The notes beneath the pieces were generated by a model that worked only from the letters and a program-made list of their open reading frames with translations, had not been told where the DNA came from and did not search any database. Source: Escherichia phage RDN8.1. From it: a stretch of DNA of 39,508 bases. A program made the translations under genes and the position numbers. Shown piece by piece: positions 1-7,049 of this stretch (positions within the stretch are counted from its first letter, which is position 1; each line of letters begins with the position of its first letter). The stretch lies in the sequence record MN414250.1. The stretch is one strand, 5' to 3'.

Positions 1-639
1 CTGTACCAACTCAACGGCTACATCTTCGCTATGGAAGTTGGCGGTATGCGTGGTGGTTATGAAGACTCTACGCTGGAAGCCTTGGCTAAGATTGGTCGTA
101 AGTGGAAGGTCAACGAGTACGTCATTGAGGGTAACTTCGGTGATGGTATGTACCTTGAGCTATTCAAGCCTGTAGCGGCCCGTATCCATCCTGCGGCTGT
201 AACTGAAGTGAAGAGTAAGGGTCAGAAAGAACTCCGCATCTGTGACGTTCTGGAGCCTATCATGGGGTCTCACAGACTTATCGTTAACGCTGCTGCCATA
301 GTACAAGACTACCAGTCGGCCTCTGATAAGGATGGTGTTCGTAACCCTATCTACTCTCTCTTCTACCAGATGACACGTATCTCTCGTGAACGTGGAGCCT
401 TGGCACACGATGACAGACTTGATGCGCTGGCTATCGGTGTACAGTTCTTCGTTGAGTCTATGGCTAAGGATGCCAACAAAGGCGAACGTGAAGTCACCGA
501 GGAGTGGCTGGAGGAACAGATGGAGAACCCACGGAAAGGCTTCGAGTCCATCCACACTGAGTTCTGGGACAATGGGGTCCGGGTGACTCACGATACGGAC
601 GACGAGCTTGGACTAGGGTCGTACGTTGCGTTCCACTAG
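1..639 (+). CDS. Large terminase subunit (T7 gp19-like), C-terminal part; 5' end lies at 38024..39508 because the window is circularly permuted
   Basis: Reading frame continuous from window start; translation ([15 protein letters not shown]...LFYQMTRISRERGALAHDDRLDALA) matches recalled T7 gp19 C-terminus; 1..357 identical to 39152..39508. Confidence 0.93.
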   Translation: MYQLNGYIFAMEVGGMRGGYEDSTLEALAKIGRKWKVNEYVIEGNFGDGMYLELFKPVAARIHPAAVTEVKSKGQKELRICDVLEPIMGSHRLIVNAAAIVQDYQSASDKDGVRNPIYSLFYQMTRISRERGALAHDDRLDALAIGVQFFVESMAKDANKGEREVTEEWLEEQMENPRKGFESIHTEFWDNGVRVTHDTDDELGLGSYVAFH

Positions 640-733
640 CTGAATGAATAACTATGGGTGAAAGCTGCATTAATACGCAGTTAGTAACCTATAGTTACTA
701 CCAGTATAACCTACTGTTTTACAAGGAGTTTGG

Positions 734-756
734 ACTTAACTATCACTATAGGGAAG
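734..756 (+). promoter_or_regulatory. Phage RNAP promoter (variant TTAACTATCACTATAGGGAAGA), predicted +1 at 751; phi-OR-like position after terminase
   Basis: Matches the 11-copy promoter motif; T7-type CACTATA-G core. Confidence 0.6.
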
Positions 757-936
757 ACCCCCGGTTACTTATAGTATTACTGTAGTGAATATACATATGC
801 AGACTTTATGCAAGACCTTAGGAGGCAGACTCCGAGTTCTTACCTAAGGCTTGCACCGATGGAAGGAGGGTGATATTAATCATAATCCCTCCAATACAGA
901 TAGTCACCGACCATAGATACAGGAGGTATGTAGCAT

Positions 937-1095
937 ATGGCAAAGACCAAAGCTGTACTTAAAGCTCTGGCGACCAATCGAGCTACATACAGGTTTCTTG
1001 CTGCTGTTCTACTTACTGCTGGCGTTACTGCTGGAAGTCAGTGGGTCGGGTGGGTCGAGACTCTCGTATGTACTCTGGTGTCTGAGTGTCATTAA
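937..1095 (+). CDS. Small hydrophobic protein, 52 aa (T7 gene 19.5 position)
   Basis: ATG 8 nt after AGGAGG; MAKTKAVLKALATNRATYRFLAAVLLTAGVTAGSQWVGWVETLVCTLVSECH; not in ORF track (<60 aa). Confidence 0.3.
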   Translation: MAKTKAVLKALATNRATYRFLAAVLLTAGVTAGSQWVGWVETLVCTLVSECH

Positions 1096-1332
1096 CGCTG
1101 TAATGGTAACAATCAACGAAAGACGGACCTAAGGTCAGTTCATAGCTGACGCTACTCTACTGACCTTAGCTACTGTAGTCAAGGACTTTAGGTAACACCT
1201 TAAGAGAAGCTCACTTAGGGTCATCCTACTTACTGGTCTATCCTAGTGTCGCCTGACCTACGGTCCTTGACCTACAGCAGCTTGGTCCTACAGTAGGGAC
1301 GATGAGTTTTGGACCAAAAGTTTGAGACCACA

Positions 1333-1523
1333 TCTCACAGTTCAAGAACCTCAAGTCTCCCCATAGGCCCTCTTTAAGTCCAGACCAAAGGCCCTACCCC
1401 TAGACCTTCGGTCTAAACTTCAAGTCATTGACCAAAGGTTGACCAGAAGTCTGGACCATCGGTGTCCTATATCTAGTGGTCATGACCCAAGGTTGGGACT
1501 ATATGTTGTGTCCTTGAGTCTCT
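1333..1523. repeat. Putative genome terminus / terminal-repeat region, collapsed to one copy in this assembly; boundaries approximate
   Basis: TCTCACAG at 1333 matches the first bases of the T7 left end; CCCCATAGG and GTGTCC..TCTCTATCTGT blocks resemble recalled T7 terminal-repeat sequence. Confidence 0.4.
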
Positions 1524-1547
1524 ATCTGTATCAGCCTCAAGTCATCA

Positions 1548-1642
1548 CCTACAGTCATCACCTACAGTCTGACAACCTACAGTCTCACAGCCTACAGTCA
1601 TCCACTGGTAATGGGACAACCTACAGTCATAGACCTACGGTC
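1548..1642. repeat. Array of short direct repeats (CCTACAGTC x5 plus GACCTACGGTC), analogous to T7 end-adjacent CCTAAAG repeats
   Basis: CCTACAGTC at 1548, 1561, 1576, 1591, 1620; related GACCTAAGGTC / CCTAAAGTC copies at about 1128, 1678, 1801. Confidence 0.7.
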
Positions 1643-1885
1643 TGGTAGACACTCAGTGGACCTTTAGTTTATCAGAGACCTAAGGTCTGGGTCTCAAGGG
1701 TTATCGTTATAGTCTCTATTTAGCAGTCAGGGAGACTATCAGTCTGACTAGGGTTATTGTTGGTGTCTGCCAACTGGACTCTTATTATCCATAGTCCTGA
1801 CCTAAAGTCAACCATCTGTAGTCGTTATCTGGTCATCCTTATATAGTCACTGGACTACTGTATAAATTACCATGATAAATAGTTG

Positions 1886-1914
1886 TTGACATAGGGTCTA
1901 ACTTTTGGTTTAAT
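1886..1914 (+). promoter_or_regulatory. Host sigma70-type early promoter (T7 A1-like): -35 TTGACA 1886..1891, 17-bp spacer, -10 TTTAAT 1909..1914
   Basis: Consensus -35, 17-bp spacer, near-consensus -10, AT-rich upstream; spacer GTCTAAC as in T7 A1. Confidence 0.6.
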
Positions 1915-2035
1915 AGCTTCCGTCAACACGACACGGCAAACACCGGATAGTGAAGACGCCGGGTCACACGGTTAAGTAGACAGCCTGATAAGTCATACGA
2001 ACAACAGGCAGTGACAAGAAGTAAGAAATAAACGC

Positions 2036-2065
2036 TTGACAAGCAGTAACGACTCAACGTAGTAT
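2036..2065 (+). promoter_or_regulatory. Host sigma70-type early promoter (T7 A3-like): -35 TTGACA 2036..2041, -10 TAGTAT 2060..2065
   Basis: TTGACA + 18 bp + TAGTAT; downstream GTACCACATCGAAACGG resembles recalled T7 A3 region. Confidence 0.5.
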
Positions 2066-2264
2066 GTACCACATCGAAACGGTGAGGCCCAACACTGAAA
2101 CGGGATAGCGAGGCGACGACAGCTAAGCGAATGTTCTTTAACAATCTGGATAAACTCTTAATGTGCGCCGATAGCGACTAACTACAGGGTCTTTGAGTCT
2201 ACATCTGAAGGCCCTGACTGATAGTCACTAACATACACACAAACAACTTCGAGAGGATATAACT

Positions 2265-2768
2265 ATGGAACGTAACGCTAACGCATACTATGACCTGCTG
2301 GCTGCAACTGTTGGGCTGTTCAATGAGCGTATTCAGTACGACGAAATAGCTGAAGGTGATGACTACAGTGACGCGCTGCATGAAGTCGTAGACGGTCAGG
2401 TTCCGCACTATTACCACGAGATTTTCACGGTGATGGCTGCTGATGGTATAAGCCATGAGTTTAATGACTCTGGGCTGATGCCTGAGACCAAGGACGTGAC
2501 GCGTATACTGCAAGCTCGCATCTATGAGGCGCTTTATAACGATGTGTCTAATAGCTCCGATGTGGTCTGGTTCGAGGCTGAAGAGAGCGACGAGGAGGAG
2601 GACGAATACTGGGTGGTTGACGCTAAGACAGGTGTATTCATTGAGCAAGCTGTATCACTTGACGTCGCTACTGCATGTGCCAAAGACCATTATGCGATAG
2701 GTCGCCACCTGAAGGTCGAAGACATCAACGATAACGTAGTGTTCGACCCTGAGGAGGACTGCGAGTGA
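2265..2768 (+). CDS. ocr: Ocr-like anti-restriction protein (T7 gp0.3 homologue) with about 45-aa C-terminal extension
   Basis: GAGAGGA RBS; VPHYYHEIFTVMAADGI..FNDSGLMPETKDVTRILQARIYE matches recalled T7 Ocr; 167 aa vs 117 aa. Confidence 0.85.
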   Translation: MERNANAYYDLLAATVGLFNERIQYDEIAEGDDYSDALHEVVDGQVPHYYHEIFTVMAADGISHEFNDSGLMPETKDVTRILQARIYEALYNDVSNSSDVVWFEAEESDEEEDEYWVVDAKTGVFIEQAVSLDVATACAKDHYAIGRHLKVEDINDNVVFDPEEDCE

Positions 2769-2962
2769 TAGTAACTTATGGTCTCTGCCAACACCACGTC
2801 ACCAACGCCCGGCTTATGGTCAAGACCGGGCAGTTAAACCATGATGCGACTATGCGTCACCTGAAAGCGGTCTACGAGGGCCGCAAGCGCATACACGACA
2901 GCTTACACTCTGAGGACAAGCAAACATGTACCAGATAACTTATAGCAGTGAACAGGCGTTCT

Positions 2963-3160
2963 ATGATGGGTGCACTATTGATAGTCATAGGTTATGGACT
3001 TATCGCCTACGTGCTGGTGAGAGACATCAACAAAGCGCGTAAAGTCTACAAATTCAACTATGTACGTCTGGGCCGCTGGACTGTACGTCAACCTAACGGA
3101 CGATTTATGCGCAACTTAGCGAACGTCTGGGATATAGCAACACTTGGGAGCAAACTGTAA
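2963..3160 (+). CDS. Small early membrane protein (one predicted TM helix); start uncertain (GTG 2948 or ATG 2963/2966)
   Basis: ORF track 2948..3160; hydrophobic GALLIVIGYGLIAYVLV then basic tail; early-region position. Confidence 0.35.
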   Translation: MMGALLIVIGYGLIAYVLVRDINKARKVYKFNYVRLGRWTVRQPNGRFMRNLANVWDIATLGSKL

Positions 3161-3420
3161 TGAAAACCGAATACACTAACAAACCATCTAGCCGTAGCCG
3201 TGTGGAGCAAGCGCACCGTGACATGTTCTTACAGCGCCGCATGAGGGCTGAGGGCCATAAGTCCGAACTAATGTGTCTGGCGTATGGTGGACGACCAATC
3301 ACTGACGATGGCAAACTTCTGGTCTCAGGCTGGAAGGCGATAGACCAACGGTCAACCATCAAGCACACGACTCATGGTGACTTCAGTCATCTTCAAGCTA
3401 ACCCACTGATATGCAAGTGA
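3160..3420 (+). CDS. Hypothetical early protein, 86 aa
   Basis: ATG overlaps upstream stop (TAATGA); fills the gap before gene 1; no recognised motif. Confidence 0.4.
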   Translation: MKTEYTNKPSSRSRVEQAHRDMFLQRRMRAEGHKSELMCLAYGGRPITDDGKLLVSGWKAIDQRSTIKHTTHGDFSHLQANPLICK

Positions 3421-3425
3421 TTCTG

Positions 3426-3448
3426 ACTTAACTATCACTATAGGACTC
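3426..3448 (+). promoter_or_regulatory. Phage RNAP promoter-like sequence upstream of the RNAP gene, predicted +1 at 3443
   Basis: TTAACTATCACTATAGGACTCAAGG; same variant as at 734 and 26754. Confidence 0.5.
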
Positions 3449-3517
3449 AAGGTCTAAGACTCCAAGTGAAAGACCGAAGAGACTTTAAGTGAAAGACTAA
3501 TAACAAGGACTTTAAGT

Positions 3518-6199
3518 ATGAGCGTCATCTCTATTAACAAACACGACTTCTCTGATGTGTCGAACGCCATTGAGCCGTTTAACCTGCTGGCCGACCACTA
3601 CGGGCAAGACCTTGCAGTCAAACAGCTTCAGCTTGAGCATGAGGCATACACTGAAGGCGAGCGACGTTTCATCAAGAACCTTGAGCGACAGACTGAGCGC
3701 GGGGAACTGGCAGACAATCAGGTAGCCAGGCCTCTTATGCAGACTCTGGTCCCTAAGATTGCGCAAGCCGTCAAGGAGTGGCACGAAGGTACAGACGGGA
3801 AGCTATCAACCTCTCGTCCGAGCGTAGCGTTCACCATGTTGAGCACTGAAGAGAAGGCCGTCAAGGACCGCTCTCTGCGCATCTCCTGTGAGTCTGCTGC
3901 GGTTATCATACTGAAGGTCGTCCTCTCCAAGCTGGTCAAGCCTGAAGGGATACCGATTACACCGATGGCCTCCGCGATAGGTCGCACACTTGAGGATGAA
4001 ATCCGCTTCGGTCGCATCCGTGACAAGGAGCAGGAGCACTTCAAGAAGGCGATAGCTGAGAACCTGAACAAGCGAGCCGGGGCATCCTACAAGAAAGCCT
4101 ACATGCAAGCGGTTGAGACCTCCATGCTGGAGCAAGGCCAACTGGAAGATGCGTGGGGAACTTGGAGTCCGACCGAGGCTGTCCACGTTGGAATCAAGAT
4201 GCTTGAGATTGTCATCCAGTCAACACAACTGGTAGAGCTTAAGCGTTATGGTGCTGGCAATGCTGCGGCTGACGTTGAGATGGTCCACCTGTCAGACTTC
4301 TGGGTCAAGAAGATGGCTCAGCGTGGCTTCTCTCTTGCGGGAATCGCTCCAGTCTACCAGCCATGCGTCGTTCCACCTAAGCCGTGGACTGGTGTCGTAG
4401 GCGGTGGGTATTGGGCCAAAGGTCGCAGACCATTGCCTCTGATTCGCTTGGGGTCTAAGTCTGCGGTAGCACGTTACGAAGACGTGTACATGCCTGAAGT
4501 CTATGACGCTGTGAACATCATCCAGAATACACCTTGGAAAGTTAACAAGAAGGTTCTGGACGTGGTGAACATGGTCGAGAAGCTGAACAACACGCCTATT
4601 GATGACATCCCTCAGATGGAACCGCTGAAGCCTGAGGACTATGCGGGTGAGACTGAAGAAGAACTCAAGGCATGGAAGAAAGCTGCTGCTGGTATCTATC
4701 GTCGCGAGAAGGCCCGACAGTCACGCAGATTGTCACTGAGCTTTATCGTTAACCAAGCGAACAAGTTTTCTCAGTTTAAGGCCATCTGGTTCCCGTATAA
4801 CATGGACTGGCGCGGGCGCGTCTACGCTGTACCGATGTTCAACCCTCAGGGTAACGACATGCAGAAGGGCCTCCTTACTCTGGCGGTAGGCAAGCCTATT
4901 GGTGCTGACGGTTTCAAATGGCTGAAGGTACACGGCGCAAACTGTGCCGGTGTCGATAAAGTCACCTTCGAGGAGCGCATCAAGTGGGTGGAAGACAACC
5001 ACGACAACATCATGGCTGCTGCTAAAGCACCGATGGACAGTATTGAGTGGTGGGGAAGGTTAGACTCTCCGTTCTGCTTCCTTGCGTTCTGCTTCGAGTA
5101 TGCTGGCGTAATGCACCACGGACTGTCCTACAACTGCTCGCTACCGATAGCGTTCGATGGGTCCTGCTCTGGTATTCAGCACTTCAGCGCGATGCTTCGT
5201 GACCACATCGGTGGACATGCAGTAAACCTGACGCCTTCCGGTAAGGTACAAGACATATACCGCATTGTATCTGACCGCATTGAGGAGGAGCTTAAAGTCC
5301 TGCTGGTTAACGGTACGGACAACGAGATGATAACCCACGAGGACAAGAAAACTGGCGAGATTACCGAGCGTCTCAAGCTGGGGACACGAGAGCTGTCCCG
5401 TCAGTGGCTGACCTACGGTATGTCACGCAAGGTCACTAAGCGTTCGGTCATGACTCTAGCCTACGGGTCGAAAGAGTACGGCTTCGCAGACCAAGTTTAC
5501 GAGGACATCGTGATGCCAGCGATTGACTCAGGGTCTGGAGCTATGTTCACTGAGCCAAGCCAAGCGTCTCGCTTCATGGCTAAGATGATTTGGGAAGCTG
5601 TGAGTGTGACCGTAGTTGCTGCGGTTGACGCGATGAAGTGGCTTCAAGGTGCTGCCAAGCTGCTGGCTGCTGAAGTGAAGGACAAGAAGACTGGCGAAAT
5701 CCTGAAGCCTTGCCTTCCGGTACACTGGGTCACACCTGATGGTTTCCCGGTCTGGCAGGAATATCGCAAGAAGGATACAACTCGTCTGAACCTGATGTTC
5801 TTAGGGTCATTCAACCTTCAGCCTACAGTCAACAAAGGCACGAAGAAAGAGCTGGACAAGCACAAGCAGGAGTCAGGCATTAGCCCGAACTTCGTCCACT
5901 CACAAGATGGTAGCCACCTACGCAAGACTGTAGTCCACACTCACCGCAAGTACGGCGTGATGTCGTTCGCAGTGATTCACGATAGTTTCGGGACCATACC
6001 TGCTGACGCTGAGTATCTGTTCCGTGGCGTCCGTGAGACGATGGTCGAGACCTACCGCGATAACGATGTGCTGCTTGACTTCTACGAGCAGTTCGAATAC
6101 CAGCTTCACGAGAGCCAGCGCGACAAGTTGCCTGAGCTTCCGAAGAAAGGTAAACTGAATATCGAAGACATCTTGTCTTCAGACTTTGCATTCGCTTAA
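3518..6199 (+). CDS. Single-subunit DNA-directed RNA polymerase (T7 gp1 homologue)
   Basis: 893 aa; long blocks match recalled T7 RNAP (NKFSQFKAIWFPYNMDWRGRVYAV, PFCFLAFCFEYAG, FAVIHDSFGT, C-terminal SDFAFA). Confidence 0.98.
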   Translation: MSVISINKHDFSDVSNAIEPFNLLADHYGQDLAVKQLQLEHEAYTEGERRFIKNLERQTERGELADNQVARPLMQTLVPKIAQAVKEWHEGTDGKLSTSRPSVAFTMLSTEEKAVKDRSLRISCESAAVIILKVVLSKLVKPEGIPITPMASAIGRTLEDEIRFGRIRDKEQEHFKKAIAENLNKRAGASYKKAYMQAVETSMLEQGQLEDAWGTWSPTEAVHVGIKMLEIVIQSTQLVELKRYGAGNAAADVEMVHLSDFWVKKMAQRGFSLAGIAPVYQPCVVPPKPWTGVVGGGYWAKGRRPLPLIRLGSKSAVARYEDVYMPEVYDAVNIIQNTPWKVNKKVLDVVNMVEKLNNTPIDDIPQMEPLKPEDYAGETEEELKAWKKAAAGIYRREKARQSRRLSLSFIVNQANKFSQFKAIWFPYNMDWRGRVYAVPMFNPQGNDMQKGLLTLAVGKPIGADGFKWLKVHGANCAGVDKVTFEERIKWVEDNHDNIMAAAKAPMDSIEWWGRLDSPFCFLAFCFEYAGVMHHGLSYNCSLPIAFDGSCSGIQHFSAMLRDHIGGHAVNLTPSGKVQDIYRIVSDRIEEELKVLLVNGTDNEMITHEDKKTGEITERLKLGTRELSRQWLTYGMSRKVTKRSVMTLAYGSKEYGFADQVYEDIVMPAIDSGSGAMFTEPSQASRFMAKMIWEAVSVTVVAAVDAMKWLQGAAKLLAAEVKDKKTGEILKPCLPVHWVTPDGFPVWQEYRKKDTTRLNLMFLGSFNLQPTVNKGTKKELDKHKQESGISPNFVHSQDGSHLRKTVVHTHRKYGVMSFAVIHDSFGTIPADAEYLFRGVRETMVETYRDNDVLLDFYEQFEYQLHESQRDKLPELPKKGKLNIEDILSSDFAFA

Positions 6200-6211
6200 C
6201 AGGAGAGAGTT

Positions 6212-6412
6212 ATGAAATTTGTACACAAGCAGACTGGCGTTGAGGGCGGGACTCAAATCGTGACCGTAACAGAACACAACGGCAAGGGTATGGTTAAGAC
6301 CACGGTCATCCCTACCGAGATGTCAAAGCAGCTTAATGTCCCATTCAAGTGGCTTGTTAAGCAGGTGGAGCAGGTACACGAGCAAGCTCTCAAAGAGGCG
6401 GCAGCCAAATGA
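6212..6412 (+). CDS. Hypothetical protein, 66 aa, between gene 1 and the phi1.1 promoter
   Basis: ATG preceded by AGGAGAG; no T7 counterpart recalled at this position. Confidence 0.45.
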   Translation: MKFVHKQTGVEGGTQIVTVTEHNGKGMVKTTVIPTEMSKQLNVPFKWLVKQVEQVHEQALKEAAAK

Positions 6413-6486
6413 CAGACCTACAGTTACTGATCTTGTGGCTGGGAGCACTCGCAGTATTCATTTTAATACAACGCAGAAGAGGTTAA

Positions 6487-6509
6487 CCTAAACTATCACT
6501 ATAGGATTA
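6487..6509 (+). promoter_or_regulatory. Phage RNAP promoter (phi1.1-like), predicted +1 at 6504
   Basis: CCTAAACTATCACTATAGGATTAG. Confidence 0.65.
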
Positions 6510-6553
6510 GACTCAAGGTCATGACTAAAAGTCGAGGCCTTCATGATTAACCA
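6506..6553 (+). promoter_or_regulatory. RNase III-like processing hairpin (T7 R1.1 position)
   Basis: Motif TAGACTCAAGGTCAT..GGCCTT(C/T)ATGATTA shared with 14025..14070 and 37062..37100; GGUCAU / GAGGCC arms can pair. Confidence 0.4.
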
Positions 6554-6579
6554 TAATAAACTACTGGAGATTTAACCAT

Positions 6580-6759
6580 ATGTATCAGAACACTATCAAC
6601 TTCGAGCGCATCCGTGAACGTCAGCAGACTGAAGGTTACATTCCGAAGGGCCGCAAGCTGAACAAGACCAAGCGTGGCGGTGGTGTCAAGGGTGCTTTCC
6701 GTAACGCTGAAGGTAAAGACTCTATGGTCAACCAAGAGAAATACTTCGTAGGAGCATAA
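6580..6759 (+). CDS. Gene 1.1-like small basic protein, 59 aa
   Basis: KGRKLNKTKR motif as recalled for T7 gp1.1; not in ORF track (<60 aa). Confidence 0.5.
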   Translation: MYQNTINFERIRERQQTEGYIPKGRKLNKTKRGGGVKGAFRNAEGKDSMVNQEKYFVGA

Positions 6760-6761
6760 GA

Positions 6762-7049
6762 ATGGGCATGTTCTCAAGAGCACATAGTGGAAACCTGAAC
6801 GCTCTGCGTCAGTCCATCAACAACTGGCAGTCCGAGACGGATTACAACGCAGTGGTCAGCACTTGGTTCGACCCGGTGACGAACAGACACTGCGTCCGAG
6901 CGGTCATAGTTCACGTCCACACACGGGAGGTCCTCATTGAGAAGGACTTCACTGAGTACCCGAATATCCGCGACGAAGATGTGCAGACCGTAGCGGTCGC
7001 CACTTGGTTTAACAAACAGTTCAACGACTATACTGGTCGATTCCTTTAA
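6762..7049 (+). CDS. Gene 1.2-like protein (T7 gp1.2 is the host dGTPase inhibitor)
   Basis: AGGAG RBS; N-terminus MG..SGNL resembles T7 gp1.2; synteny between 1.1 and ligase. Confidence 0.55.
   Translation: MGMFSRAHSGNLNALRQSINNWQSETDYNAVVSTWFDPVTNRHCVRAVIVHVHTREVLIEKDFTEYPNIRDEDVQTVAVATWFNKQFNDYTGRFL

What the first reader, a model, noticed from the sequence alone, without database searches (positions are those of the whole stretch)
2265..3420. Early region: extended Ocr, small ORFs and no gp0.7-like kinase
The Ocr homologue is 167 aa with a roughly 45-aa C-terminal extension absent from T7 Ocr. It is followed by a small membrane protein and an 86-aa protein with no recognisable similarity. 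There is no room for a gp0.7-like protein kinase (only about 750 bp to gene 1). Early genes of T7-like phages are where host-takeover and anti-defence functions sit, so these ORFs are candidate new anti-restriction or anti-defence factors.
Basis: partly seen in the sequence, partly recalled or inferred. Interest (0 to 1): 0.55.

Follow-up and report, generated by a model that had tools for sequence, protein, structure and literature searches.

The report
Ordinary K1F-type early region, one hidden gp0.4

Summary
The window is Escherichia phage RDN8.1, a Kayfunavirus about 90% identical in DNA to K1F-like phages. Ocr is 167 aa, about 53 aa longer than T7 Ocr. Gene 1 starts 749 bp after Ocr, and no gp0.7-like kinase is detectable anywhere in the window.

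None of this is peculiar to this phage. K1F gp0.3 is 169 aa, the extension occurs in 70 phage records, and neither K1F record annotates a kinase.

It is K1F gp0.35 and a remote homologue of T7 gp0.4, the FtsZ inhibitor (hhalign 96.9%). A 2022 paper reports that K1F blocks FtsZ through an "unknown" protein, so this ORF is the obvious candidate.

The membrane protein belongs to the T3 gp0.6 / K11 gp0.6A family and is probably 65 aa. The 86-aa protein is K1F gp0.38, confined to Kayfunavirus-like phages, with no functional clue.

The Ocr extension is a small folded α/β domain between two acidic tracts. Close relatives lack it through clean in-frame indels bounded by GAGGAGGAC repeats. Its function is unknown.

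Anti-defence roles for the small ORFs are unsupported. Interest is modest.

The parts
2036..2065 (+). Sigma-70-like early promoter candidate (TTGACA, 18 nt spacer, TAGTAT) upstream of ocr
   Evidence: 10 of 12 consensus matches. The region as a whole is not enriched over shuffles, so this is only a candidate. Its position matches the A-promoter region of T7 and T3.
2265..2576 (+). ocr core, residues 1-104: DNA-mimic anti-restriction domain
2577..2606 (+). Acidic linker, residues 105-114 (AEESDEEEDE); contains the first GAGGAGGAC repeat at 2595-2603
   Evidence: Its length varies among homologues from 0 to about 25 aa. AF2 pLDDT is below 50 at residues 107-111.
2607..2750 (+). Ocr C-terminal extension, residues 115-162: small folded β-β-α-β-β domain
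2751..2768 (+). Acidic tail EEDCE plus stop; second GAGGAGGAC repeat (2751-2759); also serves as the Shine-Dalgarno sequence for the next gene
   Evidence: The same tail ends both long and short Ocr forms. GAGGAGGA lies 6-7 nt upstream of GTG 2765.
2765..2938 (+). 57-aa ORF, equivalent to K1F gp0.35; remote homologue of T7 gp0.4 (FtsZ inhibitor family)
   Evidence: phrog_5058 at E=7.8e-28, with cross-hits to phrog_7202, the T7 gp0.4 family. A gp0.4-family HMM scores it at 34 bits, and hhalign gives 96.9% probability, E=1.8e-10, over 42 columns. It is the best tblastn hit of T7 gp0.4 in the window. dN/dS 0.29.
2926..3042 (+). 38-aa remnant ORF: the first 16 codons of a conserved 41-aa gene (MYQITYSSEQAFYDGC...), truncated by a deletion with its junction at 2971-2973
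   Evidence: The intact 41-aa ORF is present in L012-L014, L016, L017, L019 and L020 and belongs to phrog_33188. blastn shows the window lacks 248-327 bp relative to L014 and L017.
2963..3160 (+). 65-aa single-pass membrane protein (the longest ORF starts at GTG 2948, giving 70 aa); K1F gp0.37 / T3 gp0.6 / K11 gp0.6A family
   Evidence: phrog_2385 at E=6.9e-33, the same PHROG as T3 gp0.6. It is 95% identical to K1F gp0.37, 44% to K11 gp0.6A and 38% to T3 gp0.6. It occurs in 632 phage records. dN/dS 0.25.
3160..3420 (+). 86-aa basic protein, K1F gp0.38 family; its start overlaps the stop of the membrane-protein gene (TAATG)
   Evidence: phrog_7066 at E=2.5e-42. It occurs in 131 protein clusters and 223 phage records, all Kayfunavirus-like, and lies directly upstream of gene 1 in all 21 relatives' loci examined. 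dN/dS 0.29. AF2 pLDDT is only 56.
3433..3444 (+). Phage-RNA-polymerase promoter core (TATCACTATAGG) between the last early ORF and gene 1; marks the right-hand end of the region
   Evidence: 10 copies in the window against 0.12 expected by chance.

Best explanation
The region 2265-3420 is the canonical host-RNA-polymerase-transcribed early operon of a K1F-like phage (Kayfunavirus; the window is Escherichia phage RDN8.1), in a version compacted by deletion. It encodes four proteins.

1. A two-module Ocr. The N-terminal 104 residues are an orthodox Ocr DNA mimic. From the homology to T7 Ocr I infer that it blocks type I restriction enzymes, and probably BREX, by occupying their DNA-binding sites. 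A flexible acidic linker tethers a 48-residue α/β domain. This domain is an optional add-on that relatives have lost, probably at least twice, by recombination between GAGGAGGAC repeats. I infer that it is an accessory protein-binding module that widens or protects Ocr function. This step is speculative.

2. A translationally coupled 57-aa gp0.4-family protein. From homology, and from the published K1F phenotype, I infer that it binds FtsZ and blocks host division.

3. A 65-aa N-out/C-in membrane-anchored basic protein of the T3 gp0.6 family. Its function is unknown.

4. A coupled 86-aa basic protein (gp0.38). Its function is unknown.

There is no gp0.7 kinase, as in K1F itself.
For: - Identity and relatives.
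- Ocr core.
- Extension: folded; conserved; restricted to Ocr of this group.
- Long and short forms differ by an in-frame indel bounded by 9-bp repeats, with two different 5' breakpoints.
- gp0.4 homology: with negative controls.
- K1F infection mislocalises FtsZ and filaments cells while 'lacking gene 0.4': PMC9372555.
- T3 gp0.6 family.
- Kinase absent: and the K1F annotations.
- Deletion.
- Start/stop overlaps and Shine-Dalgarno sequences.
Against: - No function was tested here. The gp0.4 link rests on about 39% identity over 41 residues plus profiles, and the FtsZ-contacting residues of T7 gp0.4 are not known to me.
- The 57-aa protein is basic (pI 9.5), whereas T7 gp0.4 is acidic (pI 4.75). 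The binding mode may therefore differ.
- The role of the extension has no direct evidence. The fold matches (ClpS, L7/L12 C-terminal domain, small BFVD proteins) are weak, concern a 46-residue domain, and show no sequence signal.
- Its repeated loss shows it is dispensable in some hosts.
- The model of gp0.38 is unusable.
- After the deletion, the membrane-protein start has only a weak Shine-Dalgarno sequence.
Confidence: 0.8

Rival explanations
1. The Ocr extension is a second, independent anti-defence module, making Ocr bifunctional. For example, it could mask Ocr from Ocr-sensing systems such as PARIS, or inhibit another defence protein. The small ORFs gp0.37 and gp0.38 would then be new anti-defence factors that replace gp0.7 functions.
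For: - Early position next to a known anti-restriction gene.
- The extension evolves about three times faster than the Ocr core (dN/dS 0.46 against 0.15) and has two divergent helix alleles.
- Presence/absence polymorphism among close relatives, typical of arms-race genes.
- The slot upstream of the gp0.4-like gene is a swap site that holds long Ocr, short Ocr or an unrelated 174-aa protein.
- BFVD holds many stand-alone small phage proteins of similar fold.
Against: - No hit to any anti-defence or defence-related profile.
- No homologues of the extension outside Ocr.
- gp0.37 is highly conserved across several genera, including phages that carry a kinase (K11, T3, L021, L022). It is therefore not a kinase substitute and does not look like an arms-race gene.
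- No experimental data in the papers searched.
Confidence: 0.25
2. The extension is only a structural appendage, for example a stabilising, solubility or oligomerisation cap on the distal tip of the Ocr dimer. It would have no target of its own and be nearly neutral.
For: - Probably lost at least twice by simple repeat-mediated deletion without loss of Ocr.
- About 70 of 231 K1F-type Ocr records carry it.
- It is only mildly acidic (pI 4.9), so it is not an obvious continuation of the DNA mimic.
- It is joined by a linker of freely variable length.
Against: - Purifying selection is still evident (dN/dS 0.46).
- Invariant core residues (A135, G146, H148, V151, D156, D161, P162) are kept across 39 diverse sequences.
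- It is maintained in more than 120 sequence clusters. A neutral appendage in a 39-kb phage genome would be expected to decay.
Confidence: 0.3
3. The 57-aa ORF resembles gp0.4 only by ancestry and no longer targets FtsZ. The K1F division block would be caused by another early protein, for example the membrane protein gp0.37 or gp0.38.
For: - Charge reversal relative to T7 gp0.4 (pI 9.5 against 4.75).
- Only about 39% identity.
- Small membrane proteins of other phages also block division (established knowledge for λ Kil and others, cited in PMC9372555).
Against: - Conserved position, conserved coupling to ocr, and the conserved motif YGL(T/C)...G...aM..LK.(l/v)Y..(n/r)K.
- K1F shows the same multi-ring filament phenotype as T7.
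Confidence: 0.25

Closest known systems
Escherichia phage K1F early region (gp0.3, gp0.35, gp0.36, gp0.37, gp0.38; AM084414 / DQ111067)
   Same: Same gene order and the same proteins: Ocr 84% identical (169 against 167 aa, extension included), gp0.35 75%, gp0.37 95%, gp0.38 87%. No kinase is annotated, and gene 1 follows directly.
   Different: The window lacks gp0.36 (a 55-aa membrane protein). It carries a 248-327-bp deletion that truncates a 41-aa ORF found in other relatives and re-creates the gp0.37 start. Its extension carries the 'DVATACAKDHYAIGRHLK' helix allele rather than K1F's 'YEAIACAKELYEEGFHMQ'.
T7 Ocr (gp0.3; PDB 1S7Z)
   Different: T7 Ocr ends after its acidic tail at residue 117. 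Here a 48-aa α/β domain is inserted between two acidic tracts.
T7 gp0.4 (FtsZ inhibitor; Kiro et al. 2013, as cited in PMC9372555)
   Same: About 50 aa, located immediately after gene 0.3 with its start overlapping the 0.3 stop. Profile-profile homology is 96.9% over 42 columns, and the YGLT...LK.LY..NK pattern is shared.
   Different: Only 39% identity, and ordinary BLAST at database scale does not connect them. The protein here is basic rather than acidic. FtsZ binding is untested.
T3 gp0.6 / Klebsiella phage K11 gp0.6A
   Same: 65 aa, with an N-terminal transmembrane helix followed by a basic tail carrying RDxxK..KV.K and TVR.PNGRF motifs. Same PHROG (2385) and an early position.
   Different: 38-44% identity. 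In T3 and K11 it sits upstream of the gp0.7 kinase; here it sits upstream of gp0.38. It is unrelated to T7 gp0.6A/B, the MreB inhibitor (hhalign probability below 1%).
ClpS / ribosomal L7/L12 C-terminal-domain fold (resemblance of the Ocr extension only)
   Different: No sequence signal (hhalign probability below 1%). Only about half of ClpS is covered, and the Foldseek E-values are not significant. This is a fold lead, not membership.

Membership tests
Ocr (PF08684, DNA-mimic anti-restriction protein) | Sequence match to the family profile above the curated threshold | tested here: met
   108.2 bits against a cut-off of 25, residues 7-96. phrog_2568 at E=5e-55.
Ocr (PF08684, DNA-mimic anti-restriction protein) | Homology and fold match to the solved T7 Ocr structure | tested here: met
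Ocr (PF08684, DNA-mimic anti-restriction protein) | Highly acidic surface | tested here: met
   41 Asp+Glu against 9 Lys+Arg, pI 4.05.
Ocr (PF08684, DNA-mimic anti-restriction protein) | Dimer that binds and inhibits type I R-M enzymes or BREX PglX | not testable with these tools
   Requires biochemistry or plaque assays.
T7 gp0.4 family (FtsZ inhibitor) | Detectable homology to T7 gp0.4 | tested here: met
   hhalign gives 96.9%, E=1.8e-10. A gp0.4-family HMM scores the ORF at 34 bits. PHROG cross-hits are reciprocal. Controls give below 6%.
T7 gp0.4 family (FtsZ inhibitor) | About 50-aa ORF directly downstream of gene 0.3, with its start overlapping the 0.3 stop | tested here: met
   GTG at 2765 overlaps the TGA at 2766-2768. 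In T7, gene 0.3 ends and gene 0.4 starts at 1278.
T7 gp0.4 family (FtsZ inhibitor) | Binds FtsZ and blocks Z-ring assembly | not testable with these tools
   The only support is indirect: K1F infection gives FtsZ mislocalisation with an unidentified effector (PMC9372555).
T7 gp0.7 (Ser/Thr kinase and host shut-off protein) | A kinase-like ORF between gene 0.3 and gene 1, or anywhere in the genome | tested here: not met
   Best tblastn E=2.1 in the whole window. Only 749 bp are available, and they are filled by other ORFs. The method does detect kinase-bearing relatives: a 244-aa protein in L021 and L022 matches T7 gp0.7 at E=1e-33.
T7 gp0.7 (Ser/Thr kinase and host shut-off protein) | gp0.38 as a detached equivalent of the gp0.7 C-terminal shut-off domain | tested here: not met
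   hhalign probability 0.2%.
T3 gp0.6 / K11 gp0.6A (phrog_2385) | Same profile family and architecture (N-terminal transmembrane helix plus basic tail, 65 aa) | tested here: met
   Both the window protein and T3 gp0.6 hit phrog_2385 (E=7e-33 and 9e-30). blastp gives 38-44% identity.
T7 gp0.6A/B (MreB inhibitor) | Homology to T7 gp0.6 | tested here: not met
   hhalign probability is 0.4% or lower for the membrane protein, the 86-aa protein and the 57-aa protein. There is no tblastn hit.
ClpS-like fold (Ocr extension) | Structural superposition on ClpS | tested here: inconclusive
ClpS-like fold (Ocr extension) | Sequence or profile similarity to ClpS | tested here: not met
No Pfam ClpS hit.

The most novel reading that the evidence does not exclude
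The 48-residue α/β domain fused to Ocr in about 30% of K1F-type phages may be a separate counter-defence module riding on the DNA mimic. It could recruit or block a second host protein, or hide Ocr from Ocr-sensing abortive-infection systems such as PARIS. The polymorphism between long Ocr, short Ocr and no Ocr would then reflect an ongoing arms race. Separately, gp0.35 would be the 'unknown' K1F FtsZ inhibitor.
Probability: 0.2. Interest if true: 0.6.

Novelty: new member of a known kind. Interest (0 to 1): 0.3.

Why it matters
For genome annotation, the region is ordinary and already deposited, so it should not be flagged as a new system. Two points are worth passing on.

- The gp0.35-type ORF of K1F-like phages can now be named as a gp0.4-family protein. 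This gives a direct, cheap test for the FtsZ-targeting factor that a 2022 K1F study left unidentified. K1F-type phages are used in phage-therapy work against K1 E. coli, so their host-takeover genes are of practical interest.
- Natural long, short and absent Ocr variants among phages about 90% identical form a ready-made comparison set for asking what an appended domain adds to a DNA mimic.

Tried and rejected
- AF2 model of the 86-aa protein: pLDDT 56, unusable, so no fold search was run on it.
- The word-indexed homologue search with the extension alone returned only one 41-aa fragment.
- A profile search of the extension against 1.84 billion representatives gave only five long repetitive proteins. 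One of them, P0242, shares a local 'ARSMxVEDINKAVGYDP' motif (hhalign 90% over 28 columns). I treat this as a local motif, not a domain relative.
- Foldseek against the PDB gave nothing significant and did not even recover T7 Ocr.
- The afdb50 library was unavailable.
- Pfam, NCBIfam, PADLOC and PDB sequence searches of the small ORFs and of the extension gave no meaningful hits.
- gp0.38 as a detached gp0.7 C-terminal domain: rejected.
- The membrane protein as T7 gp0.6 or gp0.5: rejected.
- An Rfam scan of 1-7000 found nothing.
- The original K1F genome paper (Scholl & Merril 2005) is not held in the library. 'K1F lacks a kinase' therefore rests on the two GenBank annotations and my own searches.
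- No paper found discusses the Ocr extension.

Full report
**What the window is.** The 39,508-bp window is a circularly permuted T7-family genome. The Ocr and the 86-aa protein are 100% identical to proteins of Escherichia phage RDN8.1, whose contig is also 39,508 bp. At the DNA level it is about 90% identical over about 84% of its length to many Kayfunavirus (K1F-like) genomes. The finding therefore concerns the early region of a deposited K1F-like phage.

**Checking the observation.** ORF 2265-2768 encodes a 167-aa protein that matches Pfam 'ocr' at 108 bits over residues 7-96. A profile of this protein family aligns to T7 Ocr (PDB 1S7Z, 2Y7C) residues 5-114 of 117 using only profile positions 5-111, with E=1.3e-33. 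About 53 C-terminal residues therefore have no counterpart in T7 Ocr. Gene 1 starts at 3518, 749 bp after the ocr stop. tblastn of T7 gp0.7 against all six frames of the window gives nothing better than E=2.1. The same approach does detect a 244-aa gp0.7-type kinase domain in two more distant relatives (L021, L022; E=1e-33), so the absence is real and not a sensitivity failure. These parts of the observation stand.

The interval between ocr and gene 1 holds more than two ORFs.
- A 57-aa ORF (2765-2938) starts at a GTG that overlaps the ocr stop codon (GTGA). It has a strong GAGGAGGA Shine-Dalgarno sequence lying inside the codons of Ocr's acidic tail.
- A 38-aa ORF (2926-3042) is a remnant. 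Its first 16 codons equal those of a conserved 41-aa gene (MYQITYSSEQAFYDGCYEMMKRGACYVANHHSLTITLTGGY) that is intact in many relatives (phrog_33188).
- blastn shows the window lacks 248-327 bp relative to L014 and L017, with the junction at 2971-2973.
- This deletion removed the rest of the 41-aa gene, the gp0.36 gene where relatives have one, and the first codons of the membrane-protein gene. That gene now most plausibly starts at ATG 2963. This gives the 65-aa length seen in every relative rather than the 70 aa of the longest ORF.
- The unusually short distance to gene 1 is therefore partly a recent deletion. Relatives use 1.6-2.35 kb for the same interval.

**All ORFs look like real genes.** Across 7-11 related loci, mean dN/dS values are as follows:

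| Gene or segment | dN/dS |
|---|---|
| Ocr core | 0.15 |
| Ocr extension | 0.46 |
| 57-aa ORF | 0.29 |
| Membrane protein | 0.25 |
| 86-aa ORF | 0.29 |

All four have close counterparts in K1F, annotated in 2005-2006 as gp0.3 (169 aa, 84% identical, extension included), gp0.35 (75%), gp0.37 (95%) and gp0.38 (87%). Neither K1F record annotates a kinase.

**The Ocr extension.**
- The acidic linker at residues 105-114 is disordered. A confident (about 88) compact β-β-α-β-β unit spans residues 115-160.
- The linker varies from 0 to about 25 residues among homologues. One variant (P0060) even carries 'DSGDAYAAFCRENE', a fragment of the gp0.7-type kinase seen in L021 and L022.
- The extension occurs in 70 phage records and always inside Ocr. 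K1F-type Ocr cores at 80% identity or more occur in 231 records.
- Among 21 related loci plus the window, eight have long Ocr. Seven have a 110-114-aa short Ocr. The other seven have no Ocr core. In five of these a 174-aa protein (phrog_11084) sits in the same slot. Two carry a gp0.7-type kinase further downstream.
- Long and short forms both end in ...EEDCE.
- At the DNA level they differ by a clean in-frame indel bounded, in the window, by the 9-bp repeat GAGGAGGAC at 2595-2603 and 2751-2759. Short forms show two different 5' breakpoints. This suggests repeated deletion from a long ancestor.
- The terminal acidic codons are probably also constrained because they supply the Shine-Dalgarno sequence and start of the next gene.
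- The extension has no sequence relatives in Pfam, PHROGs, the PDB or a 1.84-billion-protein representative library.
- There is no sequence signal to ClpS or L7/L12.
- The domain is only mildly acidic (pI 4.9), so it does not obviously prolong the DNA mimic.
- I conclude it is a genuine, optional, faster-evolving accessory domain of unknown function. An accessory binding or anti-sensor role is inference only.

**The 57-aa ORF is a gp0.4 homologue.**
- It hits phrog_5058 (E=8e-28) and, more weakly, phrog_25044 and phrog_7202. T7 gp0.4 hits phrog_7202 (E=5e-33) and, more weakly, the same two other families.
- blastp gives 39% identity over 41 residues. The ORF is the best six-frame hit of T7 gp0.4 in the whole window.
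- I built a gp0.4-family alignment from T7, phiYe-F10, Morganella MP2, Pectobacterium PP74 and PP81, K11 and EFA-2. Its HMM scores the window ORF at 34 bits and K1F gp0.35 at 25.5 bits.
- hhalign of the two family alignments gives 96.9% probability, E=1.8e-10, over 42 columns. Control comparisons with T7 gp0.5 and gp0.6A/B, T3 gp0.65 and K1F gp0.36 all give below 6%.
- Position and coupling are the same as in T7, where gene 0.4 starts at the stop of gene 0.3.
- Database-scale tblastn with T7 gp0.4 barely reaches this group. The one marginal hit (E=0.07) is in a phage of uncertain placement, EFA-2.
- That explains a statement in Front Cell Infect Microbiol 2022 (PMC9372555). The paper reports that K1F causes multi-ring filamentation and FtsZ mislocalisation. 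[quoted passage not shown]
- The gp0.35-type ORF is the obvious candidate.
- Caveats: the protein is basic (pI 9.5) whereas T7 gp0.4 is acidic, and binding is untested.

**The membrane protein.** It has one N-terminal transmembrane helix followed by a strongly basic 45-aa tail, so by the positive-inside rule the tail is cytoplasmic (my inference). It belongs to phrog_2385, as does T3 gp0.6. It is 44% identical to K11 gp0.6A and 38% to T3 gp0.6. The family is found in 632 phage records across several Studiervirinae genera. This explains why one K1F record labels it '0.6'. It is not related to T7 gp0.6A/B, the MreB inhibitor. Because it coexists with gp0.7 kinases in T3, K11, L021 and L022, it is not a kinase substitute.

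**The 86-aa protein.** It is K1F and EcoDS1 'gp0.38'. It occurs in 131 protein clusters and 223 phage records, all Kayfunavirus-like. In all 21 relatives' loci examined it lies directly upstream of gene 1, and its start overlaps the stop of the membrane-protein gene. Some relatives have 108- or 130-aa forms with an N-terminal extension. The Cys residues are not conserved, H69 is invariant, and the C-terminal half is nearly invariant. It has no Pfam, NCBIfam, PADLOC or PDB hit. It has no relation to the gp0.7 C-terminal domain. The AF2 model is unusable (pLDDT 56). Its function remains unknown. The conserved coupling suggests it may work with the membrane protein, which is inference.

**Verdict.** The region is a normal Kayfunavirus early operon, compacted by deletion. 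The long Ocr and the missing kinase are genus-level traits, not discoveries. The suggestion that the small ORFs are new anti-defence factors is unsupported.

Two results have some value. First, the gp0.35-type ORF is assigned to the gp0.4 family, which makes a published open question about K1F directly testable. Second, the Ocr extension is shown to be a modular, recurrently lost α/β domain bounded by direct repeats. I rate novelty as 'new member of a known kind' and interest at about 0.3.

Noticed in passing
L007, L014, L015, L017, L019 (e.g. L014:1138-1662): In five of the seven related loci that lack an Ocr core, a conserved 174-aa protein (MKLIGKGAFTKCYLKD..., phrog_11084, no Pfam hit) occupies the slot directly upstream of the gp0.4-like gene. 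Its N-terminus looks like a kinase glycine loop by eye, but no homology to gp0.7 was detected. Some databases label K1F-type Ocr 'protein kinase', which is a mis-annotation.
   Followed up: partly
L021:2417-3151, L022:2939-3673: Two more distant relatives that also have the gp0.37 and gp0.38 genes encode a 244-aa gp0.7-type kinase domain (32% identity to T7 gp0.7, E=1e-33) without the C-terminal shut-off domain. Kinase presence is therefore polymorphic in the wider group.
   Followed up: partly
protein P0060 (179-aa Ocr homologue): Its acidic linker contains 'DSGDAYAAFCRENE', nearly identical to a segment of the gp0.7-type kinase of L021 and L022 ('DSGAAYAAFCRENEG'). This looks like a recombination scar between ocr and a kinase gene.
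   Followed up: no
protein P0087 (167 aa): A natural fusion: the Ocr extension is joined at 'AIGRHLK' to the C-terminal half of the gp0.4-like protein ('RHLKAVYEGHKRIHDSLHAEDK'), apparently by a deletion through a shared RHLK microhomology.
   Followed up: no
window 3433-3444 (also 741-752 and eight further sites): A phage-RNA-polymerase promoter core (TATCACTATAGG) lies about 75 bp upstream of gene 1, between the last early ORF and the polymerase gene. The T7 and T3 records instead list an E. coli promoter (C) just upstream of gene 1. This could give the polymerase gene positive feedback.
   Followed up: no
window 1240-1640: The region between the terminal-repeat area and the early promoters is full of short direct repeats such as 'CCTACAGTC' and 'ACCTACGGTC' (seen while reading the sequence). 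No repeat search was run, so the similarity to the repeat arrays near T7 genome ends is only my impression.
   Followed up: no
window 937-1095: A 52-aa ORF (MAKTKAVLKALATNRATYRFLAAVLL...) upstream of the early promoters matches phrog_2193 (E=3e-23) and is 90-96% conserved in relatives. It is a small hydrophobic protein in an unusual location near the genome end.
   Followed up: no
L019:3507-3932, L021:3576-3998: Some relatives carry a 140-aa Cys-rich ORF inserted between the gp0.37 and gp0.38 genes. I read its Cys/His pattern by eye as HNH-endonuclease-like, but no family search was run.
   Followed up: no
protein P0242 (2313 aa, metagenomic): A repeat in this giant surface-type protein shares a local motif with the Ocr extension ('ARSMMVEDINKAVGYDP' against 'GRHLKVEDINDNVVFDP'; hhalign 90% over 28 columns). 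This is probably a chance or local motif similarity.
   Followed up: partly
L023:922-1080 (Bacteriophage CHX131): The gp0.4-like ORF is annotated 'NinH protein' in this record, which is probably an automatic mis-annotation.
   Followed up: no
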